Part shown: in pieces, positions 25,451 through 63,772 of the stretch
How the letters are laid out: every line of letters begins with the position of its first letter
Position numbering within the stretch: the first letter of the stretch is position 1
Source: Blasia pusilla
Taxonomy: Eukaryota
Assembly (NCBI GenBank): GCA_050084515.1
Contig: CM114271.1
Location: forward strand, 23,622,001-23,686,000
Length of the DNA stretch: 64,000 bases
Direction of reading: 5' to 3'
Notes under the pieces: model-generated
What the model saw: only the letters and a program-made list of their open reading frames with translations
Database searches by the model: none
Told to the model about the DNA's origin: nothing
Translations under genes and position numbers: made by a program

Positions 25451-25820
25451 TTAGCTCATTACCCGTTCGATTCACATGTGTAGTGATCGAGCAATTGCCA
25501 TGAGAGATGGCGACCTTAGCAGCATTTAGCATTGCCATCACTTGGCTTAGTGATTTGATTGAGGGACATGTCCATGCAGAGGATACTCCCATTTGTGACA
25601 TTTGTATGGAGAGGAGAGTTATGGTAGTCGCATCATTCCGTGGAGGAGAGGTGCCGCTGTGGGGCTCGATTGAGGAGCTTCGACGATTGGCAGATGAGTT
25701 CGTGCAAACCGCGTGGAGCGAGGCGTTTGCACCGGAGCATGATGGGTCTGAGGAACCCAAGGTAGCAGGGAGTGCTACGATGATAGTCTTGGATACCACA
25801 CCCATTGTGTGGATATTTGA

Positions 25821-26760: not shown

Positions 26761-27115
26761 GATCTTCAGCTTCGGAGTGGCTGACCAGCGTCAGATGAGA
26801 TCGCGACAGATCACAGCGGTTGCGTTGGTGAGCCCCATGCCTACCGAGACAGTGGAGGCAGTGGCTGGGGGCGAGACCCGAGGAGATCGACACACCAAGG
26901 GAGATCGAGAGAGACACCCTTGGACTTCTTGGGATGTTTTGCAGGTAGGCCAGGAGATAATAGCCACAGCATCAAGCGTGGTTCCGAGCAATGCATGTGG
27001 AGGAGATCAGAGTTTGTTGTTGGCCGCAGGAGAGCGTTCGAGTATTGTCGTTCGAGACGGGGTTGCACCATAGCAACCACCGATATCCGCGCCGGAGAGT
27101 CCTACTGTAGTCACG

Positions 27116-29573: not shown

Positions 29574-29899
29574 CGATGGCATGGAGAGAGTGATGAGGAG
29601 TCAGTGCTAGGATGGCTCGCGTCAGCCTATTTAGGCATGTTAGCTATGGAGAGCGAGAGTGTGGAGACTTCGATGGCGAGGTCTAGTGGAGAGTCCTTGG
29701 ATCCTGAGGCCAGTGAGGAGACGATAGATGGCCGAGATATTCATGATGATGGAGTAGTCTTGGAGTACCTTCGGACTAGTAGCGTTGCGAGCACCGTGGG
29801 TGCTAGAGAGCGGGATCGGATCCTACAACGGGCCAAACGGTTTCGTTGGGAGGGGACACATGTTTTGAGGGTTTGGGAGGATGGAAGAGTACGCGTGGT

Positions 29900-31171
29900 G
29901 CCGCATCCTTTGCAGAGAGCACGACTAGTGCAGCATGCCCACGAGGAGTTGGGTCACGGGATGAAGCGGACGTACAACTTGCTCCAGATTCACTATTGGT
30001 GGCGAGGCATGCAGACTGACGTTCAACAGTTTGTTGCCAGATGTATGGTGTGTGATCGGGTCCGAGCATCAATGCTCTGACTCCACATTTGCATCCATTA
30101 CCGATCATGGGCTTAGGGTATAGATGGAGTTTGGATTTTGCAGGACCTTTGCCTTTGACGAAGCGTCACAGTTGTTATGTGTTGGTGATGGTCGATCACT
30201 TCTCGAAGTGGATCGAGTTGGCTGCATTGCCTGACAAAGCGAGTGAGGGAGTAGCTTATGCCTTCCTTAACAGAGTATTGAGTCATTATGGCGCACCGGC
30301 TGAGGTGTTGACAGACCAATATACTGAGTTTCGCAGTGAGTTCCAGCCCTTGTGTGATTAGGCGCTGATCGACCATCGCACGACTTCGCGAGATCATCTT
30401 GAGGCGGATGGATTAGCGGAGAGAGTTGTGTACACGGTGAAGAGGGGTTTACGCAAGTATGGCTTGCAGAGAGGTCACATAGGAGATTGGGACCTCCAAT
30501 TGCCCTGGTTGGCGATGGGATACAGATTTAGCAGGCAGGCATCCTTAGCGTCTTTTTCACCATACTTGCTACTTTATGGCCGAGAGCCAGATTTGCCTGC
30601 GGCCATTCGTCGAGATGCTGGTGAGGTGTTGGATCTTGATGACCCATATATATGGATGCGAGCATGTTCTTAGAGGGATGAGTTGTTTCGGAGAGTGATG
30701 CCCATGGCGTTCGAGAACTTCGCGATTGCACAACATCGGGATACGTTGAGGTATGCGACTATTCGGGGTGGTGGTTATCGGCCAACTATCCGGAGGTTTC
30801 ATCAAGGAGACTTTGTATACTTGCAGCAGACGCCACCGACGACATTGGATGTGACTGTAGGGCGCACTAACCTGAGAGTGCGTGACGTTTTGCCATCCGG
30901 TGTTCTCTTGTGGGAGGGACGCGATGGTATGGTATGGAAGGACCATGTGCGTAATTGTGCGCCATTTCACCTTCCTAACATTGATGGTACAGTAGATCCG
31001 AGCTGAGCAGTAGTTCCTGCAGGCTTGCGTTGTATATTGTATGGTTCTGCCCATGGTGCGGCCACGATGCTAGTCTGTGATGGATGTTCAAGAGGTTGGC
31101 ATATGGCATGTCTGACGCCACTTCTCACTAGGATTCCTTGGGGACGATGGATGTGTCCCAGATGTACATAG
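29900..31171 (+). pseudogene. DDE integrase with C-terminal PHD finger, copy 1 (degenerate)
   Basis: HHCC (HEELGH...CMVC), WSLDFAGPLP, VLTDQ, GLAERVV. PHD-like CILY...CDGCSRGWHMACL...WMCPRC at 31031-31165, stop TAG 31169-31171. Confidence 0.9.
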
Positions 31172-34100
31172 AGGAGATACTAGGTAGGTTTGATTTCGAA
31201 CTGAAAAATTCGATTTCGAATTTTTCTGTGACATGGATGACAAGAAGGCGACAAATGATGGGGCCACATGAGCACCCGGCCTTCTTGCTCTTAGCGTCCG
31301 AGAGATGTATGTCATGGTAGGTAGAGATAGATGGCTATCTGGAGTTAGAGGGACCTAACCACCAGCTAAGGGGCGATTGGAGATATTTTAGTACTTCTTG
31401 TCTTGTTGTTTGGATGCCATGAGTTAGCATGGGATCGTGCGTGTTTGTGTGTGTGTTCGGTGACAGCGATGTATGTTCCATAGTGATGTGTGTGCGCACG
31501 ATAACTGTAATGTCTTTTAGGATAGATCGGTGAGATCTAGTAGAGCGCCTTCGTTAGTAGTGGAGGACACGCTCAGTAGGTCGAGGATGACATGTTGAGG
31601 CCCCATGAAACCTGAGAGAGCAGGTTTCCCCTTCGTTTCGGCTCATTTGGAGCCATATTGAAGAACTTGCTATTTTAGGTAAGTACCATTTTGAGTATAT
31701 GATCAACTTTATATTTTTGGTAAGTGGCCCTTGTCCTCCTACATCTGGTCAAGAGCCAAGGAGGTGACTTGGGAGAATAGGTTACCATGGAGAGAGCTTG
31801 GGAGAGGGGAGGGGTGAACCTCAAGGAGAGAGAGCTTGAGAGCTCATTCTCTCTTTGTTGAACCTCTTGGCATGAGGCGGCGGAGCTATGGTCCCTTGCC
31901 TTGTAAGTGTAATCCAAGCCTCTCATTAGGAGAGTGGGTTTGGTTTGACATGAGAGAGAGTGCACACCTTTGAGAGCTGTGGTGTGAGATGGTATAAAGA
32001 GAGATTGGATCTTACTTTAATTGGAGATATTTTAGTACTTCTTGTCTCGTTGTTTGGATGCCATGAGTTAGCATGAGATTGTGCGTGTTTGTGTGTGTGT
32101 TCGGTGACAACGATGTATATTGTATAGCGATGTGTATGCGCACAACAGGCTTGTTAAGACTTGAAGGCATGCCATAGGTGCGATCGGGGCTTGGCAAGTT
32201 GAGGGTGAGCCTCATGCAAGCTTGCAGGCCTGGCAGGCGGGCCATTTGGGCTTAGTGTGAGCCAATAAGGCAAGTGGTGTGCGGACCATGCGGATTTCTT
32301 GTAGGCCTAGGTTCTGAGCATGTGGGTTGTGCGGACTAAGGCTTGGGACAAGGTTTAAGATGTTGGATTCTGAACATCCACTTCTCTGAGCACCATTAAT
32401 TTAATCGGCCCCCTTGAATGAGGAAAAGCCTAGTTTGATGGTTCCGACTTAGACGTCGAAGGAGTCATAGTAGTATGACGTAGGTGGTTTGTGGAGTAGC
32501 GTTACTAGGATTATCCAACCCTATATTGCATCAGGGTCCGGGGCACCCTGATGCGTCGCAGGGGTCCAAAGGTGCAGCCCTTGGTATGCCAAGACGACGC
32601 GGGGGTCCGAAGAAAATTAGGTTAAAAACCTAGTTTCCTAAGTAGTGACATAGTGGGGAGCGGCATCGGTAGCGCGTTCTCATATGTCAAGTTATCTCCA
32701 TATTCAGGTTCCATCGAAGCTCTTCTGTGAGCGCACAGACGGACCAGGCCACTTTGTATCTCTATGTTTTGTAAAGATTTCAGTGATTTCGTCACTTTTG
32801 TTTTCTCACATGAGGGTGTGGGTTGAAGCAAGCTCCGCGAGGCTGCGTCCGAACTTAAGCGCGGTTCATGTGTGGGTAGGGGAAGATTTTGAAGGTTATT
32901 GAAGGCACTTGAGGGGATGGAGAAGAAAGTAGAAGATTAAAATATAATTGCAAATGAATGTGGTTAAAGAAGTGGGAATAGTAGTGATCGAGAGAGGTAG
33001 GATGCATGTTAAAATAGAATTGAATTAGGTGGTTGTATTAGAAAATAGATTAGTTGCAAACAAAAGTGGATAAAGAAGTTAGGATAGTTGAATAAGGATT
33101 GGGTTTAGGAGAAAAAAAAAAGATTTGCTAAATGATAATTACTATGAATGGTTTATATGATAATTTAAAATAAAAAGTGGGAGGCATTTGGAGATCTTCT
33201 TAGTGAAAAAGTAAAGAAAATTTTTGAGCAAAGTAGTTTTGAAAAAGGATAAATTGAGAACGTCTACCTTGTTTCCGAGGACTCTAGTACATCACAAGCT
33301 CAGAATTAATAGTAAGTGGGGGTAAATCAGGTAAAAGAGTGAAGGGTTCATTCTCTTCCATCCACACTCCCCAATATAAAATTATTTATTTTGGGTATAT
33401 CCTCACAATCTCATTCCTCCCTTCATATCTTTCTATCTCTACTCTTTTATGGAAAAAACATATCTCCATAGATAGGTGAACTTGATAAGTGAGACTATAT
33501 TTTGCCACTAGATAATCATGATAGTTTAAGGTATTTTGGTTATCTAGGTTAGCATATTGATCATTCTTGTTCATAGTGATGGTTCCACAATTGCTTGTGG
33601 AGCATTCACAGACAATATTTGGTGTAAGTTATTTATATTTCACCGGTCGATATATCCTATTATAGACATTATGTACGCTTGATCTTCTGTAAATCACTTT
33701 AACTCGCCCCTCTATTCTTAAAGGGTATGGTTTGGTCACATCCAATTTTCAAGATGCCCACCATTCTAGAATGGATAGATGACGTATAGTGGATGCTCGA
33801 TCAACCTTCCCACTATGGGAGCCATCCCTTGATATAAAATTGTTGCAAACATCTCCTCACACATTATTGATTATCTTGAATAAAACCGAGATGCTTCCTT
33901 AAACACCTTCATGCAATAGTAAATATCCTCACTAAATCCAAGGATTTGATTTATTTTACAACAATATATGGTTCCGTGTAAACCTGAGTCGTCAATATCC
34001 TCAAAATAATGTCCTACTACTACATCCTTGTAAGAAATCCACTTACATCCATGAGAAACCACCAATTTCTTCCCTACATGAGTATTAAGTCCCTTAAAAA

Positions 34101-34329: not shown

Positions 34330-37300
34330 TGTCATGCGCATACACATCGCTACACAACATACATTGCTGTCATCGAACACACCCACAAACACTCACGATC
34401 CCATGCTAACTCATGGCATCCATACACAAAGGCGAGAAGTACCAAAATATCTCCAATCTGATAATTGATAACCTCCTGGTGCAGCACCATCTCCTCCTCC
34501 ATGCTGAGGCACACGTCCATGACCTTGACAAGTGCAATCGCGCTGATGATAGGCTCCACCACATGACCAACAAGTAATAGTAGGAGGCTGCTGTTGAGCC
34601 GCATATGAAGATGCAGGGTCTCTATGGCACGGCCTCCTAGTATCCTCCCTGAGCTCGTGGTGCCACAGTCGATCTATCTCGGAGTCCACGTTGTTGCACA
34701 TGTGGTGCAGCCAATCATGACTGCTCTCGCCTAGAACCCATTGTGGCTACGCTCTCCTCTGCCATGTTGCACTCAATGTTCTCGGCGGTCCTAGAAGCAT
34801 CTCTCAACATAGGGAAGGTGTTCATAAGAAGTACCCCCTCCCCCACCTGTGTTCGAAGGGTCTGGTCCAACATTGCGTACCATGATTGGATAGCCTGAGC
34901 CTGTGTCACCCCCTGAGTGACGTTGATCAACCGGCGCAAGCGAGTGTAAGCCTCACGCAAACTCTCACTTGGGCGCCTCTGTAAGTCATGGATGCTCCGC
35001 AACTTCTCCGTCCGTACCCCTTGGTAGCTCACCCTCAACTCAGCAAAGAATTCAACCACAGGGTTGAACCTGTGACGACCCCGCCTAGACGTTGCAACTG
35101 CTCTAGTGCGAGTGACCCCTCCTAAAATGTCACTTGTGGAAGAGGAAGTAGCCTCTTTTGACTCCTCCTCCTCATGTGGGAGTGGCTCCGTCCATGACAT
35201 ATAATGTGGGTCATAGTAGAGCCTCAACGCCTAGATCTCACATGCATATCTCTGAGAGAATTCATGGTCATCGTCCATGGGCGCCCCCTCTAAGAAATTG
35301 TGCAACTTAATCGTGCCTATTGCACCAGAAAACCTACGCGGTCCTCTACCTCGGTCGTCCATCTCGTATACCCAACTGGTAGGACCACTCACAATGTGTG
35401 GCGATGTGCTCACAAATTCCTCTACATCCTCCCCCTCGTCTAACGATGACATAGAAGGAGGTCGAGGTGGTCCCTCACATGGAGACCCTTGAAAACTCGT
35501 GCCACTCCGTGTAAAACCTGTAGAGCTACTCTTGGGTTGACCACCTCGCCTCTCAAAGTCTCGAATGGACGCCGTGATGACCCTCGTGCCCCTCTCACCC
35601 GATCACTCTCAACCTTGCAAGTAATCCCTCAATCACTCATCCGAAATATGCAGCACTCGATCTACACTCTCCCTCCTCGAGACGTGTAACGTGCGGCAAC
35701 ACGCGGCGTGGTGTGGAAAATTGACCAGGCTATCATCTCATTGACAACCTACCCTCAACTCTGGATATCCCACACAAATCTATGTCCCCTAAACCACATA
35801 CATGAAGGATGCTCTCAGCATCCACATAACCCAATATCCCCAAATAAACTTTCTAAATCCCAGAATCCCTCACACGTGCAGGGTAAAGGACCAGAATGGG
35901 TAACCTGAACACATGTCGATGTCGCTCCTCAGCAACTTCAAATCTCAACCCCAACTTGGTTGTGAAGACAACTCCTCCAATCAGCAAGTCGTACTCCTCT
36001 CGTTCTGACGCTACTCAACCTCCTCGATGTGCGGTGCAGGTTGAGCGGTCTGGTGCAGCACTGGCGGCATGAGACGGCTACAAAAAGCACGGCACTCGGT
36101 GGCATAGCCTCCTCAATCAGCAATTCACACGCTCTGCTCCTTAGTGAAGGAGCGGTTCCTCGATCGAGACGGTGCGGTGTGGCACGAGCGGCACGACGCA
36201 ACAATCGGCCGCGCGTTGCAGCTACACGCGTCACGACACGATACTCGATCGTTGTCGAGCAGCTACCAATCACAACATAACAACATGAAATCAAAACTCA
36301 AACACCATAACCGGAGGTCATCTGCCATCACTGGTTGATGACAAAATTGCGATGAAAGTGACGGCCAAAACAAAGTAAGTGGTGGCAACATCATGGAAGA
36401 CCCTCCACTCCATAATGGCGGCAATGGCAACCAAAGGGTGGACAACGGACGGTGGACCGTTGATGGTGACGATTGACCGTTGATGGTGACGGTGACGGTT
36501 GACCATTGACGATGACGGTTGACTATTGACGATGATGGTTGAATGTTGATGGTGAACCGTTGATAGTGACTATGATGGCGACGGCCGCCGGCGACGTGGC
36601 GGCTGGTTTAGGGTTTGAACAATTTAACCCTAAAGATCACCTCGCAATGGCAGTTTTGCAAGATTGACCATAACGTTTTTCTCGCAACTCTAAATTGTGC
36701 ACTGTTTATTGCACAGCGTGCACAACTGCATGATCTACGACAACATCAAAAAATATTTAGAATTGGACATTCCAATAAAAACTGACAGGGATTGTTGGAA
36801 AGCCCAATGTCTCTTTCTCCTACACAAAATTTGGCAGCGCTTCCGCGCTGATTTCTCCCAACGAAAATGTAAAATACAAATCAGCAAGTTACATGGTGCT
36901 CCCAAAAGCGCCAGAATGGGGCAACCTGCCCCCATAATCAATTCCTATCAGAAATTGGGTAGTTCTTCCGCGCGCCAGTCTTCCACACAAAAAATCGGCA
37001 AATGCAAGGAAGAATCAAAGCAGCCCTTGCTCCGATGAGCAGTCCCATGAGCCGCTGAACGGGGAACACGGTCCTCAACCTGCAAAAATAGCGAGTGACC
37101 AATGAGCTCCGCCATGAAGCTCTCTCACTCTCTCATTCTCTCATTCTCTCATTCTCTCTTTCTCTCATTCTCTCTTTGTAAAGTAAGATCCAATCTCTCT
37201 CTACACCATCTCACACCATAGCTCTCAAAGGTGTGCATTCTCTCTCATATCAAACCAAACCCACTCTCCTAATGAGAGGCTTGGGTTACACTCACAAGGC

Positions 37301-37691
37301 AAGGGACCATAGCTCTACTGCCTTATGCCAAGAGGTTCAACAAAGAGAGAATGAGCTCTCAAGCTCTCTCTCTTGGAGGTATACCCCCTTCCCTCTCCCA
37401 AGCCCTCTCAACGGTAACCTATACTCACAGGTCATCTCCTTGGCTCTTGACCTGCTGTAGCGGGTCAAGATTCACTTCCCAAAGTGGAAAGTCAACTATC
37501 CCTAATATGGAAACTTACCCGAAATAATAAGTTTCTCTATATGGCTCCAAATGAGACGAAACGAAGGTGAAACCGGCTCTCTTAGGTTCCCCAAGGCCTC
37601 AACAGGTCATCCTCAACCTTGTGGGCATGTCCTCCACTACTCGTGTAGACGCTCTACTTGATCCCACCGATGTATCCTAACAGTCGTGACA
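34330..37691 (-). mobile_element. Internally deleted copy 3 of the same retrotransposon (A - leader - partial gag - B)
   Basis: The minus strand starts TGTCACG at 37691 and ends GACA at 34330, with TSD GCCT (34326-34329 / 37692-37695). A 37179-37691, B 34330-34458. Gag ORFs 35231..35452, 34715..35227 and 34411..34701. Confidence 0.92.
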
Positions 37692-53299: not shown

Positions 53300-53496
53300 G
53301 TCTTAATAAAGTCCGTGTCCGCAGACTTATGCTTGTCCCTAAGACGGACATGTCCATGCGGGCTTGGATACCCAGGTACCCACGCCCACACCTAAGTCTG
53401 CCTCCGGAGTCCACCAAGCCCGTAGCGGGCATCCGGGCAGGTCGAGCCCGCATTGGTTTTGTGGCCCGCGGGGTGGGCTCAGGCTCGCCCAGCGGG
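53300..53496. repeat. Left arm of a GC-rich foldback/MITE-like host repeat interrupted by copy 2
   Basis: gagcccgcattggttttgtggcc (53444-53466) is an imperfect inverted repeat of gaccacaaaaccattgtgggctc (63816-63838), on the far side of the insertion. Confidence 0.55.
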
Positions 53497-53805
53497 TGTC
53501 ACGTCTTTTAGGATAGATCGGTGGGATCTAATAGAGCGCCTTCATGAGTAGTGGAGGACACGCCCAGTAGGTTGAGGGTGACCTGCTGAGGCCCTTGGAA
53601 ACTTGAGATAGCAGGTTTCCCCTTCGTTTCGGCTCATTTGGAGCCATATTGAGGAACTTACTATTTTAGGTAAGTACCATTTTTAGTATATGATCGACTT
53701 ACTATTTTTGGTAAGTGACCCTTGACCTCCTACATCAGGTCAAGAGCCAAGGAGGTGACTTGGGAGAATAGGTTACCATGGAGAGAGCTTGGGAGAGGAG
53801 AGGGG

Positions 53806-53849
53806 TATACCTCAAGGAGAGAGAGCTTGAGAGCTCATTCTCTCTTTGT
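53806..53849 (+). promoter_or_regulatory. Putative Pol II core promoter in repeat A (TATA-like element plus initiator-like TCATT)
   Basis: TATAC (TATAAC in A2) at 53806, and CTCATTC about 30 nt downstream (53834). The same segment is complementary to the PBS-position sequence. Confidence 0.45.
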
Positions 53850-54009
53850 TGAACCTCTTGGCATGAGGCGGCGGAACTATGGTACCTTGCCTTGTGAGTG
53901 TAACCCAAGCCTCTCATTAGGAGAGTGGGTTTGGTTTGACATGAGAGAGAGTGCACACCTTTGAGAGCTATGGTGTGAGATGGTGGAGAGAGAGATTGGA
54001 TCTTACTTT

Positions 54010-54025
54010 ACAAAGAGAGAATGAG
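54010..54025 (+). promoter_or_regulatory. Putative self-priming primer-binding site
   Basis: ACAAAGAGAGAATGAG begins at the last base of A1 and is the exact reverse complement of 53834-53849. There is no tRNA-type TGG PBS. The same sequence occurs in copy 1 (21323-21338) and copy 3 (37164-37179). Confidence 0.6.
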
Positions 54026-57000
54026 AGAATGAGAGAGTGAGAGAGCTTCATGGGGAGAGCTGGTCACTCGCTGTTTTTGTAGGTTGGGGACCGTGTTCCC
54101 CGTTCAGCGGCTCATGGGAGTGCTCACCGGAGCAAGGGCTGCTTTCATTACTCTTTGCATTTGCCGATTTTTCGTGTGGAAAAGTGGCGCGCGGAAGCGC
54201 TGCCCAATTTCTGATAGGGATTGAGTATGGGGGCGGGTTGCCCCATGCTGGTGCTCTCGGGAGCACCATGTAGCTTGCTGATTTGTATTTTTACAGATGT
54301 TACATTTTCGTTGGGAGAAATCAGCGCGGGAGCGCTGCCGAATTTTGTCTAGGAGAAAGAGACATTGGGATTTACGACAGTCCCCGTCAGTTTTTACTGA
54401 AATGTCCGATTCTAAATATTTTTTGATGGTAGCGTAAATCGTGAAGCTGTGCACACTGTGCAACAAACAGTGCACAATTTGGAGTTGCAAGCAAAAAGTT
54501 ATGGGCAATCTTGTAAAGCTGCCATTGCTAGGCGATTTTTAGGGTTAAATCGTGCAAACCCTAAATCAGCCGCCCCACCGGCGGCGGCCGTCGCCATCAT
54601 AGTCACCGTCAACGGTCGATGGTCAACCGTCACCATCATCGGTCGGTCGTCACCATCAGCGGTCAACCGTCACTGTCAAGGGTCCACCGTCCATTGTCCA
54701 CCCTTTGGGTGCCATTGCCGCCATTACGGAGTGGAGGGTCTTCCATGACGTTCGTTGATTCCTTGACTTGCGTCGCCACCACGTACTTTGTTTTGGACGC
54801 CACCGTCATCGCAGTTTCTTCATCAACCAGTGAAGGCAGATGACCTCCGGTTATGGTGTTTGAGTTTTGATTTCATGCTGCTATGTTGTGATTGGTAGCC
54901 GCTCGACGACGATCGAGTATCGTCGCGGACGCCCGTGAGCCGCAACGCCGCCGATTGCCGCGCCATGCCGCTCGGGGCGCACCGCACCATCTCGATCACG
55001 AGCCGCACCGTCATTGTGGAGCAGAGTGTGGGATTATTATTGATTGAGGAGGGTATGCCGCCGAGTGCCGCATCCCACCATCGGGGCGTGCCGTTCGAGC
55101 CGTTCGTGCCGCTGCAACGCCGCACCGTTCGTTGGGACCGCATCGTCTATCGAGGAGTTTTGAGCAAAGATCGATGACGGGAGGAGTATGACTTGTTGAT
55201 TGGAGGAGTTGTCTCCACGATCGAGTTGGGGTCGAGATTTGCGATTCTTTGAGGAGCGACATCGACATGTGTTCAAGTTAGGTTACCCATTCTGGTCCTT
55301 TACCCCGCACGTGTGAGGGATTTAGGATTTATTTGGGGATATTGGGTATGTGGATCGAGAGCATCATTTATGTATGTGGTTTAGGGACATAGACCTGTGT
55401 GGGATGTCCGGAGTTGAGGGTAGGTTGTCGATGAGATGATAGCCTGGTCGATTTGCCGCACCACGCCGCGTGTTGCCCGACGTTACGTCTCGGAGAGAGA
55501 GAGTGTAGATCGAGTGCCGCATGTTTGGGATGAGTGATTGAGGGATTCCTCACGAGGTTCAGAGTGATCGGGTGAGAGGGGCACGAGGGTCATCACGGAG
55601 TCTGTTCGGGACTTTGAGAGGTGAGGTGGTGAACCCGAGAGTAGCTCTAGAGGTTTTCGCGGAGTGGCGCGAGGTTTCGAGGGTCTCCACGTGAGGGACC
55701 ACCTCGACCTCCTTCGTGTCATCGTCAGACGAGGGGGAGGGTGTAGAGGAGTTTGTGAGCACATCGCCACACATTGTGAGTGGTCCTACCAGTTGGGCGT
55801 ATGAGATGGACAACCGGGGTAGAGGACGCGTAGGTTTTCAGTGCGATGAGGGGCGATTGAGTTGCACGATTTTATAGCAGAGTTTAGGAGTTGATGCGAC
55901 TCCCGGGCCAGGAACTCTAGAGAGTTCAACCCGTTCTGACATGGAACGGTATGTTCCAGCATTTAGAGGGGGCGCCCATGGGCGATTACCATGAGTTCTC
56001 GAGAGATATGCATGTGAGATCGGCGTGGAGGCTCTACTATGACCCACATTATGTGTCATGGACGGAGCCGTTCCCAGATGAGGAGGAGGAGTCGAGGAGA
56101 GGCTCCGCCTCTTCCACTAGTGACGTTTTAGGAGGGGTCACTCGCACAGAGCGATTGCATTGCCGTCTAGTCGGGTTCGTCCCGAGTTCAACCCGTGGTT
56201 GAGTTCTTTTTGAGTTGAGGGCGAGCTACCGGGGGCGGACGGAGAAGTTGCGGAGCATCCACGACTTCAAAGGCGCTCGGGTGAGAGTTTGCGTGAGGCT
56301 TACACTCGCTTGCGCGGTTGATCAACGTCACTCGGTGGGGTGACAGAGGCTCGAGCTATCCGGTCATGGTATGCGATCTTGGACCGGACCTGCGGACACG
56401 GAGTGCGGGAGGGGTGCTTCTTATGAACACCTCCCCTACGTTGAAGATGTTTTAGGACCGCCGAGAACATTGAGCGCAACATGGCGGAGGAGAGCGTAGC
56501 CACCATGGGTTGGGCGAGAAGCGATCCACGATTATGCACCACGTGTGCGGCAGAACGTGGACTCGAGATAGGTCGATCGTGGCACCACGAGCTCGGGGAG
56601 GATACCGAGAGGCCGTGCCCACGAGACTGCGCCTTCATATGCGGCTCAGCAGCCGCCTACTATTACTTGTTGGTCATGTGGTGGAGCCCATCATCAGCCG
56701 CGATTGCACTCGTCGGGGTCATGGGCGTGTGCCTCAAAGATGGAGGAGGAGATGGTCTTTGCACCAGGAGGTTATCAATGTGACTATTGTCGAGGTATGG
56801 TCATACACGCGCCATGTGTTTTAGTTTACATCTGAGTTACGCCTGGACCGAGGGCCAGAAAGGGCACCAGAGCGAGTAGCCGGTCCGGGTGGGCCTAGAG
56901 ATCGTGCTCGGTGGTCCCGTTGGGGACGAGGAGGGAGTTGCCCGAGAGGGTGGTGGAGCTGCCCGTGGAGGAGGTAGAGTACCACCATCTAGACGCGCCG

Positions 57001-58490
57001 AGGAGATGCCGGACGTGAGGTCGGGATGGTTGCTCGATACAACGACTACAGGAGAGAGATTGCCGCTATGGCATTGAGGTTACCCGATGCGGATCCGTGG
57101 CATCGACATCATATGGAGCAGCCAGAGATCTGGAGGATCCTAGATGGATGTGCGGGGTTGCCCAGATGGAGGCCGCCGCAGTTGTGATGCGTGGAGCGCC
57201 GCAGAGTTGGATCCACGGCCAGGGGAAGCCAAGAGATGGCAGACTAGGCTTCCTCAATCTTTCACGTTGTCGAAGCGATGAGGACCCCATCGATGGGTCC
57301 TCATCAAAGTTCCGGAGAGTTGGTAATGTTGTTGGTGTGCAAGCACGAGGGCGATGGGAGAAGCGAGTGCGGCGACTCCTATTGTTGATGCTCGGGAGGG
57401 GCATGTGTCGAGCACGTTGTTGGGGCGGCCACCGTTGTGTACCGCACTCCTTTATTTTTGCTTCCGATGTTGTGGCGTTGGGAGGTACGCCCGCCGAGGC
57501 TTTTTTGGCTGGCCGCTTCACTATGTGAGCGCGAGTTGGAGTTCTGCATCACGTTAGAGGTGATTGAGGAGGTGATGGACCTGCCCTTGAGCGGATGCTC
57601 GGGCCGCCCACGTCGATTCATGGCGGTGCGGTCGCTAGGATGGCGGAGATGCCCGCTAGACCCGCGATAGAGCGTGCCATGGCTTCTCCTGGTGTTGTGT
57701 TCTTTGGATAACCGAGGAGAGGTCTTCCAATTGGTGAGTCTTGGAGGTAGAGCTTTTAGTCCGTGGCAGCGTCTTGTTGATTCAGAGCGCAACCCTTGAT
57801 GTTGGGGAAAGTGTCATTAGAGGATTGGGCTTGACGAGAGCCGATGTGGAGTGTTGTCCATTTCGGATACTGAGACATCCTTGGGTGGAGCGAGTACCAC
57901 CACAATATATCACCCGACAGAGGTCGTGGTGAGGATTCGCCGGGACATCCTGAGATGAGTCCGTGGTGCGCGCCAAGGCGATAGTGATCGATCTTTGAGT
58001 CCTCGACGTCTTGGTTGGTGGAGGAGTGTTATACCCGATGGGGTTTTCCCTGGATTCTTGGGAGGAGTCGCATCTCTGAGACCAGGATGGCAATCAGGTG
58101 ATGGGCGCCTTAGCTCATTACCCGTTCGATTCACAGGTGCGATGATCGAGCAACGGCCAGAGAGATGGCGACCTTAGCAGATTTAGCAGTGCCATCACTT
58201 GGCCTAGTGATTTGATTGAGGGACATGTCCATGCAGAGGATACTCCCGTTCCTGACATTTCTATGGAGAGGAGTGTTATGGTAGCCGCATCATTCCGTGG
58301 AGGAGAGGTGCTGTGTGGGGGCTCGGACCGAGGAGCTTCAACGATTGGCGGTGCGCACGCGCGCATCAGCGTGGAGCGAGGCGTTTGCACGAGGCGTGGC
58401 GGGTGTGAGGAACCCGAGGTAGCGGGAGTGCTACGATGACACCCTTGGATACTACACCCATTGTGTGGTGTACCGGAGGAGGGTATTCGA

Positions 58491-59420
58491 GTGTTAGATC
58501 TCTTTGGAGGGATTAGCACCGGGTTAGGCTCTTTGTTTTGAGGCAGGAGTCGAGTCTGATAGTACTTGTATGTGGAGAGTGATGATGTTGCGGCGCGTCT
58601 CACTCGACATGTGGTGCAATTACGCCCACGTTTTCCCGACTTATTGTCTGCGCCGCGTCTGGGTACCGAGTTCCCCTACCGAGGGATATTTTGTTGTTGG
58701 GGGCGCAGGACTTAGAGCGGGTAGGGACCATTGATTTGGTCATTGCCGGTTGGCCATGTCAGGGCCAATCGAGTCTTTGGGACGAGGCGCGGGTTGGTGA
58801 CACTCGGTCCAGTTGTTTTGGGAGATGTTGAGGGTCTTACGGCGATTCTGCAGGAGAGCACCGATCTCGTTCTCCAGCCTACATTCTGGAGAAAGTGCCG
58901 ATCTCAGGAGACTCCAGGTCACGGGTCGTGATGAGTGCTCATCAGGTGCGTGCCTGGATCGGCCCAGCAGTGTTCTTGGATGCGGCGAGTGTAGGTTCTA
59001 GAGCCCATTGCCCGCATCTATGGTGGACCAACTTGGTGCCCCATGCGGTGTTATGGAGGGCGTATGCGAGAGTGGAGCGCCCCTCCCCTTTGTTAGTGGA
59101 TTCCATTCTGGATCCAGGTCGTCGATCACACGCAGTGAGGCACGATGATCGACCACCGCTGACTGTGGTCAACAGGGTAGGCAGGCCGCGGGCAGCCTTG
59201 CCCACGTTTGTGAGTTTTCCCGCTTCCTATGCATACAAGGAGGCCGGTCCTGGCTTGGTTTGGGATGACCAGGTTCAGCGGTTGGTGGAGCCCAACGCCG
59301 ACGAGAGAGAGCGAGCGATGGGATTTCCCAGAGTGACGGCAGTACCATCGGTGTCAGAGGCATCACGACGCCATGTCTTGGGTCAGGCGATGGACCTGAA
59401 TCGCTTGACATGGATCCTCG
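58491..59420 (+). pseudogene. DNMT3-like C5-cytosine DNA methyltransferase domain inside Pol, copy 2 (frameshifted as assembled)
   Basis: VLDLFGGISTG (58491-58523), IDLVIAGWPCQG (catalytic PC within 58748-58765), YILE.VP, DAASVGSRAH..HLWWTNL and ERERAMGFP...RRHVLGQAMD. Confidence 0.92.
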
Positions 59421-59766
59421 GCCTTGGGAGTGGTCGAGCGGCGTCGTATGAGATCGCGACAGATCACACGGCATTGCGTTAGGAGCCCCATGCCTACCGA
59501 GACGGTGGAAAAGTGGGCTAGGGGCGAGACCCGAGGAGATCTACGCACCGGGGGGAGATCGGGAGAGACACCCTTGGACTTCTTGGGATGTTTTGAAGGT
59601 ACGCAAGGAGATGATAGCCACAACATCGAAGCGTGGTTTCGGCAATCGCACGTGGAGGAGATCGAGTTTGCGATTGGTGTAGGAGAGCGGCCGAGTGTTG
59701 TTGTTCGAGACGGGTTGCACCATAGCAACCACCGATACCCGCGCCGGAGAGTCCTACCGTAGTCAC

Positions 59767-62700
59767 GATGGAGACTTGGGAGCCAGATATGGGCCCTAAG
59801 TTGACAGGAGGAGAGCGGCGCCGAATACATCGTTCCTCGGGAGTTATAGGAGCGCTGCGTTTAGCATGGAGGATTTGGGTACGCTGAAGGGACCGGGATC
59901 CGCATTGAGTTGTCGAGTGATATGCCGATCTTCCGGCGACCCTACACAGTCTGATGATATGGAGAGGGCTCGATTGAGTAGGAGCAAGACTTGGTCGGAG
60001 CGGGACTAGTGGAGATGTCGCATGGGGAGTATGCATACCGCCCTTTGTCATGCCCGCCAAGAAGGATGTGCATGGCAACCGGGCGGATAGGCGGATGTGT
60101 GGGGATTACCGACCTATCAATCGCGACGAAGTCCGATAGGTATGCCATGCCCACCCCGAGAGATCTTTGATGCGATTGGTCACGCAAAGGTCTTGATTCA
60201 TTGATTTTGAGTGGATACCATCACCGCCTATCGATTGGAGGACAGAGGAAGACGGCATTTTGGGGCATCGATCCTCACGGGAAGGATTGTTTGTACCAGT
60301 GGCGGTTCTTACCATTTGGGTTAAAGAACGCCCGGCTGAGTTTGAGAGGGTCATGGATAGGATCTTGGCTGGTCCGGATTTTGCTAGGTGTTATATTGAT
60401 GACATTGTAGTCTTTAGCGCCACGGTTGAGGAGCATGAGCAACATCTAGAGGAGGTGTTTCGGCGATTGCAATTACATGGGCTGAAGCTACATCCAGGCA
60501 AGTGCAAGTTCTTCTATGACCAGATTGAGTACTTGGGTCATACGATATACCCGGGGCCTTGGTGTTCAGCAGAGGCGAAGGTAGAGGCTATCTCACGCAT
60601 TCCACGCCCTACTGAGATGTGAGCCGTGATCGGCGCATTCATGGGATTGACGAACTTCTATTGGCGTACGTCAAGGGATTGATTTGATTGCGGGGGCCGA
60701 CCTTGCTCACCAAGGTGGATCACGAGTGGCACCAGGGGATGAGCAGAGCGAGCATTTCGATTGCTCAGGGCAAAGTTGGCGTCCGCACCCATCTTGAGGA
60801 GACCGATCGGGCGTCCTTTCGATTGCACCTGATTGGAGCATGTTGGGGCTTGGAGCGGTGCTCACCCAAAGATGATGATGAGGGTAGAGAGTTCGTGGTA
60901 GCTTACGCTAGCCGCTCGAACAACGCTGCAGAGGTGAAGCACACTCGTATGAGGGTGAGTGCTTGGTGCGATGTGGGGTGTCGCGCATTTCAGGTGTTAC
61001 TTATTCGGCAACCCCTTTACCATCATCATCGATCATCAACCACCTGAAGTGGTTGATGGAGTCCGACAAGCTTTGAGGAAGCTTGCGAGATGGGCTCTGT
61101 TGTTGCAGGAGTATGATTTTCAGGTGGTACATAGACCTGGAACGCTCAACCAGGATGCAGATGGGTTGAGTCGTAACCCATGCCCGAGTCAGCGAGATGC
61201 GATTGGAGCTCGATGGCATGGAGAGAGTGATGAGGAGTCGGTGCCAGGATGGCACGCGTCAGCCTATTTAGGCATGTTGGCTATGGAGAGCCAAAGTGTG
61301 GAGACTTCAATGGCGAGGTCTAGTGGAGAGTCTTTGGATCCCGAGGCCAGTGAGGACACAACAAGTGGCCGAGATATTCATGATGATGGAGTAGTCTTAG
61401 AGTACCTTCGTACTGGCAGCCTTGCGAGCACCATGAATGCTAGAGAGCGGGATCGGATCCTACAGCGGGCCAGACGGTTCCGTTGGGAGGGGACACATGT
61501 TTTGAGGGTTTGGGAGGATGGTAGAGTACGCGTAGTGCCGCATCCTTTGCAGAGAGCACGACTAGTGCAAACCATGCCCACGAGGAGTTGGGTCACTTTG
61601 GGGTGAAGCGGACGTATAGCTTGCTCCAGATTCGATATTGGTGGCGAGGCATGCAGGCGATCGACGTTCAGCAGATTTGTTGCCAGGTGCATGGTGTGTG
61701 ATCGGGTCCGAGCATCGTTCAATGCTCCGACTCCACGATTGCATCCATTACCGATCATGGGCTTAGGGTATAGATGGAGTTTGGATTTTGCGGGACCTTT
61801 GCCCTTGACGGAGCGCCACGGTCGTTATGTGTTGGTGATGGTGAGCACTTTCGAAGTGGATCGAGTTGGTTGCATTGCCTGAAAAAGCAAGTGAGGGAGT
61901 AGCTTATGCCTTCCTTGACGGTGTCTTTGAGTCATTATGGCGCACCGGTGAGGTGTTGATGACCAGGTACCGAGTTTAGCGGTGAGTTCCAGGCCTTGTG
62001 TGATCAAGCGATCGACCACCGCGACGACGACCGCGAGATCATCCCGAGGCGGATGGATTAGCGGAGAGAGTTGTGCAGACGGTGAAGAGGGGTTTACGCA
62101 AGTATGGCTTGCAGAGAGGTCACCTAGGAGATTGGGACCTCCAGTTGCCATGGTTGGCGATGGAATACAAATTCAGCAGGCAGGCATCCTTATCGTCTTT
62201 TTCACCGTACTTGCTACTTTATGGCCGAGAGCCAGATTTACCTGCGGCCATTCGTCGAGATGCTGGTGAGGTGCTGAACCTTGATGACCCAGATGTATGG
62301 GTGCGAGCATGTTCTCAGAGGGCTGAGTTATTTCGGAGAGTGATTCCCATGGCGTTCGAGAACTTGGCGATTGCACAACATCGGGATACGTTGAGGTATG
62401 CGACTATTCGAGGTGGTGGTTATCGACCAACTATCCGGAGGTTTCATCAGGGAGATTATGTCTATTTGCAGCGACGGCACCGGCGGCGTTGGATGTGATC
62501 GCAGGGCGCACTATCTTGAGAGTGCGTGACATTTTGCCATCGGGTGTTCTCTTGCTGGAGGGACGCGATGGTATGGTATGGAAGGACCATGTGCGTCATT
62601 GTGCGCCATGTCACCTTCCTAACATTGATGGTACAGTAGATCCGAGCTTAGTAGTAGTTCTTGCAGGCTTGCGTTGTATGTTGTGTAGTTCTGCCCGTGA

Positions 62701-62815
62701 TGCGGCCACGATGCTAGTCTGTGATGGGTGTTCGAGAGGATGGCATATGGCATGTTTGACGCCACCTCTCACTAGGGTTCCTCAAGAACGATGGATGTGT
62801 CTTAGATGTAGATAG
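59767..62815 (+). pseudogene. pol: RT - RNase H - DDE integrase - PHD region of copy 2 (many 1-bp indels as assembled)
   Basis: CYIDDIVVFS, VVAYASR, KLARWALLLQEYDF...HRPG..NQDADGLSR, WSLDFAGPLP. Intact PHD at 62675-62809, stop at 62815. Confidence 0.9.
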
Positions 62816-62986
62816 AGAAGTTAGTTCTACATTCCGACTTGTGTCTATGACATGGATGACAAGGAGGCGACTAACGATGGGGCCACATGAGCACCCGGCC
62901 TTCTTGCTCTTAGCGTCCGAGAGATGTATGTCATGGTAGGTAGGGATAGATGGCTATCTGGAGTTAGAGGGACCTAACCACCAGCT

Positions 62987-62993
62987 AGGGGGG
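62987..62993 (+). promoter_or_regulatory. Short polypurine tract just upstream of repeat B1
   Basis: AGGGGGG-C-GATTGG in copy 2 and AAGGGG-C-GATTGG in copy 1 (31368-31373). Absent before B2. Short for a PPT. Confidence 0.5.
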
Positions 62994-63772
62994 CGATTGG
63001 AGATATTTTGGTTCTTCTTGTCTCGTTGTTTGGATGCCATGAGTTAGCATGGGATCATGCGTGTTTGTGAGTGTGTTCGGTGACAGCGATGTATGTTGTG
63101 TAGCGATGTGTATGCACACGACAGCTATCACGTCTTTAAGGATAGATCGGTGGGATCTAATAGAGCGCCTTCATGAGTAGTGGAGGACATGCCCAATAGG
63201 TCGAGGGTGACCTGCTGAGGCCCTTGGAAACCTGAGATAGCAGGTTTCCCCTTCGTTTCGGCTCATTTGGAGCTATATTGAGGAACTTACTATTTTAGGT
63301 AAGTACCATTTTTAGTATATGATCGACTTAATATTTTTGGTAAGTGACCCTTGACCTCCTACATCAGGTCAAGAGCCAAGGAGGTGACTTGGGAGAATAG
63401 GTTACTATGGAGAGAGCTTGGGAGAGGAGAGGGGTATAACTCAAGGAGAGAGAGCTTGAGAGCTCATTCTCTCTTTGTTGAACCTCTTGGCATGAGGGGG
63501 CGGAGCTATGGTACCTTGCCTTGTGAGTGTAATCCAAGCCTCTCATTAGGAGAGTGGGTTTGGTTTGACATGAGAGAGAGTGCACACCTTTGAGAACTAT
63601 GGTGTGAGATGGTGGAGAGAGAGATTGGATCTTACTTTAGATTGGAGATATTTTGGTTCTTCTTGTCTCGTTGTTTGGATGCCATGAGTTAGCATGGGAT
63701 CATGCGTGTTTGTGTGTGTGTTCGGTGACAGCGATGTATGTTGTGTAGCGACGTGTATGCGCACGACACGGG

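What the first reader, a model, noticed from the sequence alone, without database searches (positions are those of the whole stretch)
53497..63768. DDE-integrase (Gypsy-type) retrotransposon with split direct repeats A...B-A-B instead of paired LTRs
Seen: both full-length copies are A1(514 bp) - internal - B1(129) - 2 nt - A2(514) - B2(~129). They have TG...CA outer ends and different 4-bp TSDs (GGCT, CGGG), so they are independent insertions with the same architecture. A1 and A2 of each copy share private variants (copy 2 gtgggatctaatag and ggtacc; copy 1 gtgagatctagtag and ggtccc), so each A pair comes from one reverse-transcription event. Established: A-B-A-B split repeats characterise tyrosine-recombinase retroelements (PAT/Ngaro-like), which lack DDE integrase and normally make no TSD; Ty3/Gypsy elements normally have two full LTRs. 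Inference: this is a hybrid architecture that I do not recognise as described, and standard LTR finders would miss or mis-bound it.
Basis: partly seen in the sequence, partly recalled or inferred. Interest (0 to 1): 0.95.

Follow-up and report, generated by a model that had tools for sequence, protein, structure and literature searches.

The report
Gypsy-DNMT3 retrotransposon with split repeats
This is a dead copy of a plant-lineage jumping gene that uses an ordinary integrase yet has its terminal repeats arranged in the odd A...B-A-B pattern of a quite different class; the pattern has been noted once in print for an alga, and the sequence here suggests how it may arise.

Summary
Window 53497-63768 (c2) and 20810-32147 (c1) are A1(514)-internal-B1(129)-2 nt-A2-B2, with TG..CA ends and 4-bp duplications GGCT and CGGG. 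A and B pairs carry copy-specific variants. The internal part encodes gag-protease-C5 DNA methyltransferase (DNMT3-like)-RT-RNase H-DDE integrase-PHD finger, all broken by stops. No tyrosine recombinase was found.

De Mendoza et al. 2018 (PMC5890265, Fig. 4c legend) state that KnitGypsy-Dnmt3 of Klebsormidium has a DIRS-type repeat structure with Gypsy domains. This is a new, probably liverwort, member of that kind. About 0.9% of sampled genomic reads lie on it.

I found the same architecture in 16 unique metagenome loci. Eight are complete, and none has conventional LTRs.

What I did not find in the texts I read or in six full-text searches:
- A G-run (PPT-like) abuts B1.
- The 14-17 nt after A1 are complementary, with covariation, to a site inside A about 30 nt after a TATA box. 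This looks like Tf1-like self-priming.
- B1-GC-A2 is a palindromic "joined ends" site.

So the LTR defined by reverse transcription (B-GC-A) is a circular permutation of the unit defined by integrase (A..B). I infer that integrase cuts this internal palindrome and that the outer cDNA ends are then joined to form A2|B2.

The parts
53493..53496 (+). 5' copy of the 4-bp target-site duplication CGGG of copy c2
   Evidence: flank ...CAGCGGG|TGTCACG; the same CGGG follows B2.
53497..54010 (+). A1 of c2 (514 bp). It starts TGTC. It holds a TATA-like box about 30 nt before 53834 and the inferred transcript start / self-primer site at 53834-53849.
   Evidence: (alignment)
54010..54025 (+). PBS-like 16 nt abutting the end of A1. 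It is the exact reverse complement of 53834-53849 inside A.
   Evidence: 16-nt exact complement; 0 of 200 control 40-mers from the internal region reach it.
55829..58160 (+). Degenerate gag (CCHC) and aspartic protease region of c2
   Evidence: tblastn of Marchantia and metagenome polyproteins. The protease position is inferred from c1 24985-25497 by offset.
58479..59480 (+). C5 cytosine DNA methyltransferase domain (DNMT3-like). Motif IV PCQ is present; there is one in-frame stop.
   Evidence: The c1 counterpart 26076-26261 scores 30.2 bits for Pfam DNA_methylase, above the cut-off of 22. The family profile is nearest DNMT3A/B/C.
59777..61215 (+). Reverse transcriptase and RNase H, broken by stops and frameshifts
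   Evidence: RVT_1 at 60332-60547, RT_RNaseH at 60959-61114
61343..62471 (+). DDE integrase (H2C2 zinc domain at 61573-61677, then the rve core)
   Evidence: the c1 counterpart has rve at 30119-30388.
62675..62809 (+). C-terminal PHD finger
   Evidence: PF00628, E 3.8e-09; c1 31055-31165
62983..62994 (+). G-run (AGCTAGGGGGGC), a polypurine-tract-like site directly 5' of B1
   Evidence: A G-run abuts B1 in the window, in L052 and in the L016-type loci.
62995..63123 (+). B1 of c2 (129 bp), ending GACA
63119..63130 (+). Junction B1-GC-A2. Its ancestral form GACA-GC-TGTC is a perfect palindrome, and it is the inferred integrase recognition site. In c2 the A2 side is mutated to TATC.
   Evidence: (5c), 51, 52, 53: exactly 2 nt (GC, AC, GT or AT) in 15 of 15 junctions read; 18-bp perfect palindrome in L052.
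63126..63639 (+). A2 of c2
63640..63768 (+). B2 of c2, the right terminus ...GACA
   Evidence: 1,169 genomic reads become unlike the window exactly behind 63768.
63769..63772 (+). 3' copy of the target-site duplication CGGG
20810..32147 (+). Copy c1, with the same architecture and duplication GGCT at 20806-20809 and 32148-32151. It is older (A pair 94.5%) and carries a private 1,002-bp solo LTR at 28572-29573.
34330..37691 (-). Copy c3. It holds A, about 2.8 kb of 5' internal sequence up to the gag zinc knuckle, then B from its first base. It has no B1-A2. Duplication AGGC lies at 37692-37695 and 34326-34329.

Best explanation
**What it is**
- The element is a decayed member of the streptophyte 'Gypsy-DNMT3' retrotransposons. 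These are Ty3/gypsy elements with a DNMT3-like cytosine methyltransferase in the polyprotein and a PHD finger after the integrase.
- Their integrated form is A1-internal-B1-GC-A2-B2.

**How I think it works (shown and inferred steps are marked)**
1. Inferred from a TATA box and complementarity: transcription starts inside A1, near position 338 of 514.
2. Inferred from a covarying complement of 14-17 nt: the first bases of the RNA fold back on the sequence abutting the end of A1 and prime minus-strand synthesis, as in Tf1/Sushi.
3. Inferred from a conserved G-run: plus-strand synthesis starts at the G-run abutting B1.
4. It follows from steps 2 and 3 under the standard LTR scheme that the cDNA carries LTRs of the form B-GC-A. 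This is a circular permutation of the unit A..B that integrase inserts.
5. The ends are shown; the cleavage is inferred. Integrase does not use the cDNA tips. It uses the internal palindrome GACA-GC-TGTC, which mimics joined LTR ends. It joins the start of A and the end of B to the target with a 4-bp stagger.
6. Inferred: the outer cDNA tips (end of A, start of B) are joined to each other. This happens either before integration, as a two-LTR circle, or after it, by host end joining. The result is the A2|B2 junction.

**My odds**
- Architecture and family: about 0.9.
- Permuted LTR (steps 2-4): about 0.7.
- Steps 5-6: about 0.4.
For: **Architecture, ends and duplications**

**Domains**
- RVT_1, RT_RNaseH, Integrase_H2C2, rve, PHD and DNA_methylase are present and no tyrosine recombinase is found.
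- The DNMT profile is nearest DNMT3A/3B/3C, E 7e-16.
- RT-RH is nearest Ty3, E 4e-48.

**Relatives**
- Calypogeia fissa at 64% identity and many Marchantia proteins.
- Conserved catalytic motifs (PCQ, ENV, RxR, ERERAMGF) in 13 aligned relatives.

**Prior description**
- PMC5890265, Fig. 4c legend.

**Same architecture elsewhere**
- Of 80 metagenome loci, 16 unique loci show B1-A2-B2 after pol.
- Eight of these also hold A1 (L007, L016, L019, L020, L034, L047, L048, L052).
- None shows a conventional LTR pair or the order A-B-A-internal-B.

**Perfect 4-bp duplications**
- Found in 7 of 11 copies checked: c1, c2, c3, L052 AAGG, L020 TTTA, L048 TTTT, L007 CCAC.

**PPT-like G-run**
- It abuts B1.

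**Self-primer**
- Exact complements of 14-17 nt occur between the bases after A1 and a site 118-181 nt before the end of A.
- Three lineages have unrelated sequences at both sites.
- Controls reached this length in 0 of 200 trials for five copies and in 9 of 200 for c3.
- A TATA motif lies 21-34 nt upstream in four of 12 rows (c2, L052, L016, L064); in c1 and c2 A1 the motif was read by eye.
- The bases after B1 have only 6-9 nt of complement.

**Palindrome**
- Exactly 2 nt in 15 of 15 junctions, all explicable as transitions of GC.
- Read joints carry AC (9), AT (5) and GT (5).

**A2|B2 behaves like joined free ends**
- It varies by 0-2 nt.
- c1 is 1 nt shorter than c2.
- In L007, B2 is cut back to its last 29 nt, yet the copy still has a duplication.
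- In c3, B joins from its first base to mid-gag.
- In L064, B is inverted at the left end and the end of A joins the flank.

**Reads**
- Sense-strand RNA reads cover the element.
- 115,284 of 12,434,590 sampled genomic reads lie on it.
Against: - No cDNA, circle or transcript end was observed.
- The RNA table of read starts shows none at the predicted start, 53834. Only the best-supported rows are printed, and A1 and A2 reads cannot be told apart.
- A simple two-LTR-circle model predicts the order A-B-A-internal-B about half the time. I saw it in 0 of 10 complete copies, so an asymmetry must be assumed. I suggest the left LTR becomes double-stranded long before the right one. This is untested.
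- Three complete loci (L016, L019, L047) have no duplication.
- L034 has unresolved boundaries, no G-run and only an 8-nt complement.
- For L019 and L048 I could not place the end of A1, so the self-primer is untested there.
- Of the 35 loci with enough 3' sequence, an automatic screen found the B..B pair in only 11. The rest are degenerate, or needed looser settings, or stay unexplained.
- The c3 junction shares a GATT microhomology, so an ordinary later deletion is possible.
- Junction variation could also be ordinary decay.
- Membership with the Klebsormidium family rests on shared features, not on a sequence comparison. No K. nitens name appeared among the listed hits.
Confidence: 0.55

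Rival explanations
1. DIRS/PAT-style regeneration at the level of reverse transcription.
- The RNA runs from inside A1 to inside B2, so the A2|B2 junction is inherited through the RNA.
- The missing left part of A1 and right part of B2 are restored by template switches onto the internal B1-A2.
- A full-length linear cDNA, A-internal-B-A-B, is then inserted by the DDE integrase through its tips in the ordinary way.
For: - The repeat geometry is exactly that of PAT/Ngaro elements, as the legend in PMC5890265 says.
- This model makes the architecture deterministic. That fits 10 of 10 complete copies having one order.
- B is GT-rich, and RNA reads cover B1/B2, so a poly(A) site in or after B2 is possible.
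Against: - With the primer site abutting A1, minus-strand DNA starts at the end of A. After the first jump it cannot copy B2, so B2 must come from B1.
- The conserved G-run abutting B1 has no role in this model unless it primes a plus strand starting at B.
- The variable A2|B2 junction and the aberrant copies (L007, c3, L064) fit joined free ends better than templated copying.
Confidence: 0.25
2. An ordinary LTR retrotransposon that has been mis-bounded or rearranged.
- Either the true LTR is A+B (or A alone) and the 5' LTR has lost B.
- Or the coding part is an insertion into the first of two tandem LTRs.
- Or the arrangement is an assembly artefact.
For: - A2-B2 together look like a 643-bp LTR with TG..CA ends and a short terminal inverted repeat.
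- Nested LTR insertions are common here. One example is the solo LTR inside c1.
Against: - The same arrangement occurs in 2 window copies and 8 complete metagenome loci of several lineages. Duplications flank the start of A and the end of B.
- There is no duplication at A1|internal or at internal|B1.
- A and B pairs are copy-specific, so both are remade at each transposition.
- Raw reads support the right end and the B/A joint.
- L064 and L065 are independent assemblies of one locus.
Confidence: 0.03
3. A tyrosine-recombinase (DIRS/PAT/Ngaro) element whose recombinase has decayed beyond recognition, with the integrase coming from a nested Gypsy element.
For: Split direct repeats are the hallmark of PAT/Ngaro. 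Earlier notes of this scan (e1-631996, e1-672520) describe such elements.
Against: - No Phage_integrase hit in the sense frames of c1 or c2, nor among the Pfam lists of the named relatives.
- RT-RH is nearest Ty3.
- One continuous gag-PR-DNMT-RT-RH-IN-PHD order is seen, colinear with intact relatives.
- 4-bp duplications are present.
Confidence: 0.01

Closest known systems
KnitGypsy-Dnmt3 of Klebsormidium nitens (de Mendoza et al. 2018, Nat Commun 9:1341, PMC5890265); called 'Gypsy-DNMT3' of streptophytes in a 2026 preprint (10.64898/2026.05.21.726589; passages)
   Same: - Gypsy domain composition.
- A DNMT3-related methyltransferase inside the polyprotein.
- A DIRS-type A-coding-B-A-B repeat structure.
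- A streptophyte host lineage.
   Different: - The host here is probably a liverwort with a large genome. The best hit is Calypogeia at 64%, with Marchantia at 46-57%.
- The copies here are dead.
- I could not compare sequences with K. nitens, and I do not know where its DNMT sits in Pol.
- Target duplications, the palindromic B/A junction, the PPT position and the self-primer are not in the text I read. The supplements were closed.
PAT-like and Ngaro elements of the DIRS order (Goodwin and Poulter 2004; recalled, and cited in PMC5890265)
   Same: Split direct repeats A1-internal-B1-A2-B2, with B1 abutting A2.
   Different: - Those elements use a tyrosine recombinase and make no target duplication.
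- They have a DIRS-type RT.
- Some carry a Dam-like adenine methyltransferase.
- Here there is a DDE integrase, a Ty3-like RT, 4-bp duplications and a C5 DNMT3-like domain.
Tf1/Sushi self-priming Ty3/gypsy elements and the plant Tcn1 clade (Neumann et al. 2019, PMC6317226; passages)
   Same: - There is no tRNA-type primer site.
- The bases just after the upstream repeat are complementary to a site that would be the transcript's 5' end.
- Tcn1 elements occur in mosses and are predicted to self-prime.
   Different: - Those elements have conventional LTRs and a chromodomain.
- This element has a PHD finger, a DNMT and split repeats.
- The phylogenetic relation was not tested.
Integrase cleavage of the palindromic LTR-LTR junction of two-LTR circles in foamy virus and HIV-1 (PMC1180852, PMC1905944; search listing and abstract starts only)
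   Same: A ...CA-nn-TG... palindrome made of the two joined att sites, proposed as an integrase substrate.
   Different: - In retroviruses the junction arises only in circles and is a side pathway.
- Here it is a permanent part of every copy, and it would be the obligatory substrate.

Membership tests
Ty3/gypsy (Metaviridae) LTR retrotransposons | Pol order PR-RT-RNase H-integrase with a DDE (rve) integrase | tested here: met
   Pfam hits in that order on c1 and c2. They are colinear with intact relatives.
Ty3/gypsy (Metaviridae) LTR retrotransposons | RT related to Ty3 rather than to DIRS, copia or retroviruses | tested here: inconclusive
   Among solved structures the nearest to the Marchantia relative P0009 is Ty3 RT/RH 4OL8, E 4e-48, ahead of caulimovirus and retroviruses. 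No tree against REXdb or GyDB could be built.
Ty3/gypsy (Metaviridae) LTR retrotransposons | Two identical full LTRs at the ends | tested here: not met
   Only A is at the left end. B-GC-A-B is at the right end.
Ty3/gypsy (Metaviridae) LTR retrotransposons | TG..CA termini and a 4-5 bp target-site duplication | tested here: met
   TGTC..GACA ends. A perfect 4-bp duplication in 7 of 11 copies checked.
DIRS order (DIRS1, PAT, Ngaro) | Tyrosine recombinase instead of integrase | tested here: not met
   No PF00589 hit at E<=0.05 in the three sense frames of c1 or c2. Antisense frames were not scanned. The relatives' Pfam lists hold rve and no recombinase.
DIRS order (DIRS1, PAT, Ngaro) | Split direct repeats A1...B1A2B2 (PAT/Ngaro type) | tested here: met
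DIRS order (DIRS1, PAT, Ngaro) | No target-site duplication | tested here: not met
   4-bp duplications are present.
Gypsy-DNMT3 (KnitGypsy-Dnmt3) | DNMT3-type C5 methyltransferase domain inside the Gypsy polyprotein | tested here: met
   Pfam DNA_methylase scores 30.2 bits on c1. Motifs were read. The profile is nearest DNMT3A/B/C. The domain lies between protease and RT.
Gypsy-DNMT3 (KnitGypsy-Dnmt3) | DIRS-like A-coding-B-A-B repeats together with Gypsy domains | tested here: met
   against the legend of Fig. 4c in PMC5890265
Gypsy-DNMT3 (KnitGypsy-Dnmt3) | Sequence relatedness (same clade) to the Klebsormidium elements | not testable with these tools
   No K. nitens sequence was at hand, and none was named among the listed hits.
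Tf1/Sushi/Tcn1 self-priming chromoviruses | Primer site complementary to the 5' end of the element's own transcript | tested here: inconclusive
   A complement of 14-17 nt, covarying in three lineages, with a TATA about 30 nt upstream. The transcript start itself was not observed.
Tf1/Sushi/Tcn1 self-priming chromoviruses | C-terminal chromodomain | tested here: not met
   A PHD finger is there instead.

The most novel reading that the evidence does not exclude
- A whole clade of green-lineage Ty3/gypsy elements (DNMT- and PHD-bearing) replicates with an LTR that is circularly permuted relative to its integration ends.
- Reverse transcription is self-primed and yields B-GC-A LTRs.
- The integrase obligatorily cuts an internal palindrome that mimics a two-LTR circle junction.
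- The true cDNA tips are sealed to each other.
- This would be a DDE-integrase integration pathway not known for any retroelement. It would also offer a mechanistic bridge to the split repeats of tyrosine-recombinase elements.
Probability: 0.35. Interest if true: 0.85.

Novelty: new member of a known kind. Interest (0 to 1): 0.6.

Why it matters
**A rule that does not hold here**
- LTR retrotransposons are taught, and found by software, on the rule that the repeats made by reverse transcription are also the ends used by integrase.
- In this family the two do not coincide.
- LTR finders will therefore mis-bound a family that makes up about 0.9% of the sampled reads of this genome.

**An open question**
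- How a DDE-integrase element maintains split repeats is unanswered in the texts I read.
- The only printed mention I found is one figure legend.

**Testable predictions**
- The sequence features found here turn the oddity into predictions that could be tested in Klebsormidium or Marchantia.
- They are a self-primer site after A1, a polypurine-type G-run before B1, a conserved palindromic junction and a variable A2|B2 seam.

**Wider distribution**
- The methyltransferase-carrying Gypsy family extends to bryophyte-type genomes.
- It has relatives with another domain order in chlorophyte algae.

Tried and rejected
- **Whole genome.** None is held for this window, so no genome-wide census was possible. 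I used raw reads and metagenome loci instead.
- **Translating whole frames.** I then used ORF pieces and a read-through with X at stops.
- **tRNA-type primer site.** The recalled initiator-Met motif TGGTATCAGAGC had 2 matches at 2 mismatches against 4.8 expected. Neither is near A1. Rejected.
- **Splicing of the internal part to make the A|B junction.** There are no GT..AG borders at A1|internal or internal|B1. Rejected.
- **A primer site after B1.** Only 6-9 nt of complement. Rejected.
- **Earlier notes of this scan.** None exist for this genome or sequence.
- **Sequencing runs.** No RNA holder was listed among the indexed runs. Raw RNA runs were laid instead.
- **Viral-contig scan.** A scan with the chlorophyte-type alignment A4 found nothing. 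Whether those relatives have split repeats stays untested.
- **Automatic boundary refinement.** It was unreliable for several loci, so those junctions were read by eye.
- **L025 and L072.** These are low-complexity arrays and were dropped.
- **L030/L032.** They hold a small 2.5-kb A-x-B-A-B unit downstream of pol that I did not resolve.
- **Literature searches.** Searches for another description of integrase elements with split repeats found only PMC5890265 and the 2026 preprint. One search failed on a term that was too short.

Full report
**Observation**

The window holds two full copies of one element on the + strand.
- c2 lies at 53497-63768: A1 53497-54010, B1 62995-63123, GC, A2 63126-63639, B2 63640-63768.
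- c1 lies at 20810-32147: A1 20810-21323, B1 31375-31503, AC, A2 31506-32018, B2 32019-32147.
- Both begin TGTC and end GACA.
- Both are flanked by perfect 4-bp duplications, GGCT for c1 and CGGG for c2.

The repeat pairs are more alike within a copy than between copies.
- The A pair is 94.5% identical in c1 and 97.3% in c2, against 92.2-93.6% between copies.
- The B pair is 90.7% in c1 and 97.7% in c2.
- In A, 16 sites separate the c1 pair from the c2 pair and only one separates first from second repeats. In B the counts are 4 and 0.

A third copy on the minus strand (34330-37691) has its own duplication, AGGC. It consists of A, about 2.8 kb of 5' internal sequence, and then B.

**Coding content**

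All frames are broken. ORF pieces and an X read-through of the three sense frames gave these Pfam hits: RVT_1, RT_RNaseH, Integrase_H2C2, rve, a C-terminal PHD finger and, on c1, DNA_methylase (30.2 bits against a cut-off of 22). No Phage_integrase hit appeared at E<=0.05.
- tblastn with intact relatives gives the order gag(CCHC)-protease-DNMT-RT-RNase H-integrase-PHD.
- c2 58586-59479 shows the C5-methyltransferase motifs, including AGWPCQG.
- A profile of 13 relatives keeps PCQ, ENV, RxRWxWTN and ERERAMGF. It is nearest DNMT3A/3B/3C among solved structures, E 7e-16. Bacterial methylases score about 1e-7 or weaker and DRM2 about 2e-4.
- RT-RH of the Marchantia relative is nearest Ty3, E 4e-48.
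- c1 carries a private 1,002-bp solo LTR of another element at 28572-29573, with TG..CA ends and duplication CGATG.

**Prior knowledge**

De Mendoza et al. 2018 (PMC5890265; passages, section 9 read in full) describe KnitGypsy-Dnmt3 of Klebsormidium nitens. It is a Gypsy element with a Dnmt3-type domain in Pol.
- The legend of their Fig. 4c states that its repeat structure is that of a DIRS element while its domains are those of Gypsy.
- A 2026 preprint speaks of 'streptophytes (Gypsy-DNMT3)'.
- The architecture is therefore in print, though only in passing.
- I saw no target duplications, junction anatomy or mechanism in the text I read. The supplements were closed.
- Searches found no other description.

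**Host and abundance**
- The best protein hits are Calypogeia fissa (64% identity), many Marchantia polymorpha proteins (46-57%) and Sphagnum. I infer a bryophyte host, probably a liverwort.
- Of 12,434,590 sampled reads of a whole-genome run, 115,284 (0.93%) lie on c2 at 88% likeness or more.
- Depth is roughly 800-1,800 over the internal part and higher over A.
- 1,169 reads turn into unlike, mutually different sequence exactly behind 63768 (agreement 0.33).
- Joints from the end of B to the start of A carry AC (9 reads), AT (5) or GT (5) between them.
- No joint from the end of B to the internal start, or from the internal end to the start of A, is among the listed joints. Those listed have about 20 reads or more, and 270 weaker ones are not shown.
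- C>T and G>A dominate the differences.
- Three RNA runs give 4,870-5,190 reads each, almost all in the orientation expected for sense transcripts, with a 3' bias.

**Relatives**

A scan of metagenome contigs with an alignment of 13 relatives returned 80 loci. I removed duplicates (L035=L042, L034=L038, L064=L065) and two low-complexity cases.
- 16 unique loci show B1-A2-B2 downstream of pol.
- 8 of these also contain a lone A1 upstream: L007, L016, L019, L020, L034, L047, L048 and L052.
- No locus shows a conventional LTR pair or the order A-B-A-internal-B.
- An automatic screen found the B pair in only 11 of 35 loci that had enough 3' sequence. Looser settings added L052, L034/L038, L007 and the probable L022 and L063. 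About ten loci show no repeats at all and stay unexplained.
- Perfect 4-bp duplications flank L052 (AAGG), L020 (TTTA), L048 (TTTT) and L007 (CCAC). L016, L019 and L047 have none, and L034 is unresolved.

**Anatomy that bears on mechanism**

(a) The B1/A2 junction.
- It holds exactly two bases in 15 of 15 junctions read. The bases are always GC, AC, GT or AT, that is, GC or its transitions.
- With GC the site reads GACAGCTGTC, a perfect palindrome. In L052 the palindrome is 18 bp long.
- It has the form of two att sites joined head to head, like a two-LTR circle junction.

(b) The G-run.
- A G-run abuts the first base of B1 in the window family, in L052 and in the L016-type loci. This is the position of a polypurine tract.

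(c) The self-primer.
- The 14-17 nt straddling the end of A1 are the exact reverse complement of a site 118-181 nt before the end of A.
- This holds in c1, c2, c3, L052, L016 and L020.
- Controls reached this length in 0 of 200 trials for five of these copies and in 9 of 200 for c3.
- The three lineages have unrelated sequences at both sites, so the pairing covaries.
- A TATA motif lies 21-34 nt upstream of the site in c2, L052, L016 and L064 (four of the 12 rows), and I read one in c1 and c2 A1.
- The bases after B1 have no such complement, only 6-9 nt.
- This is the layout of Tf1/Sushi self-priming (recalled). Neumann et al. 2019 predict self-priming for the related Tcn1 clade, which occurs in mosses (PMC6317226).

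(d) The A2|B2 seam.
- It is less exact than the other junctions. It carries 0-2 extra bases that match the first bases of the primer site.
- c1 is one base shorter than c2.
- L017 has about 19 extra bases.
- In L007, B2 is cut back to its last 29 nt, although the copy has a duplication.
- In c3, B is joined from its first base to the middle of gag.
- In L064/L065, B lies inverted at the left end with its start against the start of A. There the end of A2 joins a flank that is duplicated over 111 bp.

**Interpretation**

By the ordinary rules of LTR replication, the primer site after A1 and the polypurine-type tract before B1 define an LTR of the form B-GC-A. The ends that are actually joined to the target are the start of A and the end of B. 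These lie side by side inside that LTR. The integrated element therefore equals a conventional cDNA, (B-GC-A)-internal-(B-GC-A), with two changes: the left B has been cut off at the palindrome, and it is attached behind the right A.

I propose that integrase cuts the internal palindrome and inserts the two new ends with a 4-bp stagger, and that the true cDNA tips are sealed to each other. The sealing could happen beforehand, as a two-LTR circle, or afterwards, by host end joining. Integrase cutting of such palindromic junctions is reported for foamy virus and HIV-1 (PMC1180852, PMC1905944; I saw only the listing and abstract starts). The aberrant copies L007, c3 and L064 fit B existing as a separate fragment with a free start.

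**Weak points**
- Nothing here observes cDNA or a transcript start.
- A plain circle model predicts the order A-B-A-internal-B as often as the observed one, yet 0 of 10 complete copies show it. A kinetic asymmetry must be assumed: the left LTR becomes double-stranded long before the right one.
- Some loci lack duplications or the self-primer.
- Junction variation may be decay.
- The main rival is a DIRS/PAT-like, fully templated regeneration followed by ordinary end integration. It explains the single order well. It explains poorly the primer site, the G-run and the ragged seam.

**Verdict**
- The claim of novelty is not. This is a new, probably liverwort, dead member of the Gypsy-DNMT3 kind, whose odd repeat structure is already noted in print.
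- Interest stays moderate to high. The family is abundant and LTR finders would mis-bound it. The features found here give a concrete, testable account of a replication and integration route that I did not find explained in print.

Noticed in passing
window 28572-29573: A 1,002-bp solo LTR of another retrotransposon is inserted in the RNase H-integrase linker of c1 only. It has TGTCGCG...GCAACA ends, an 11-nt imperfect terminal inverted repeat and a 5-bp duplication CGATG.
   Followed up: yes
window 59889-60944 (c2): An RNA-only joint skips 1,054 nt, from the end of the DNMT region through most of RT. It has 9, 21 and 10 reads in three RNA runs and 0 reads in the DNA run at depth of about 1,300. 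Five unmatched letters lie between the two sides. No GT..AG is seen in c2 itself. It could be a spliced or subgenomic transcript of an expressed relative.
   Followed up: partly
L064 6141-6744 and 14996-15576 (L065 is the same locus from another assembly): An aberrant copy. B lies inverted at the left end with its start against the start of A1. A2 has no B2 behind it. A 111-bp stretch of flank is duplicated on both sides.
   Followed up: partly
window 21873-21994 and 54592-54713: An array of 20-bp tandem repeats lies in the long (about 1.8 kb) untranslated leader between A1 and gag of both copies.
   Followed up: no
window 62675-62809 (c2) and 31055-31165 (c1): A PHD finger follows the integrase where chromoviruses carry a chromodomain. 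The same occurs in relatives with the order RT-RH-DNMT-IN-PHD that are named from chlorophyte algae (Haematococcus, Tetrabaena, Monoraphidium, Pleodorina, Chlamydomonas eustigma).
   Followed up: partly
window 49228-50819, minus strand: A host gene fragment encodes WD40 repeats in two long open frames (343 and 226 aa; several beta-propeller Pfam families below their cut-offs, WD40 at 31 bits). It is the only clear non-transposon coding sequence I saw near the elements.
   Followed up: partly
window 10750-10980 (minus) and 18469-18957 (plus): Further short fragments with similarity to integrase and gag of the same kind of polyprotein (tblastn). The window is largely made of transposon remains with AT-rich stretches between them.
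   Followed up: no
L030 16646-19115 (L032 shows the same sequences at these junctions): A small (about 2.5 kb) unit with the same A-x-B-A-B repeat logic lies downstream of a DNMT-Gypsy pol. It may be a non-autonomous derivative.
   Followed up: no
L034 6638-18301 (= L038): A divergent lineage with A of about 925 bp and B of 93 bp. The first ~16 nt of A reappear after B2 and are missing from A1, so the repeat boundaries are shifted. There is no G-run before B1 and only an 8-nt complement after A1.
   Followed up: partly
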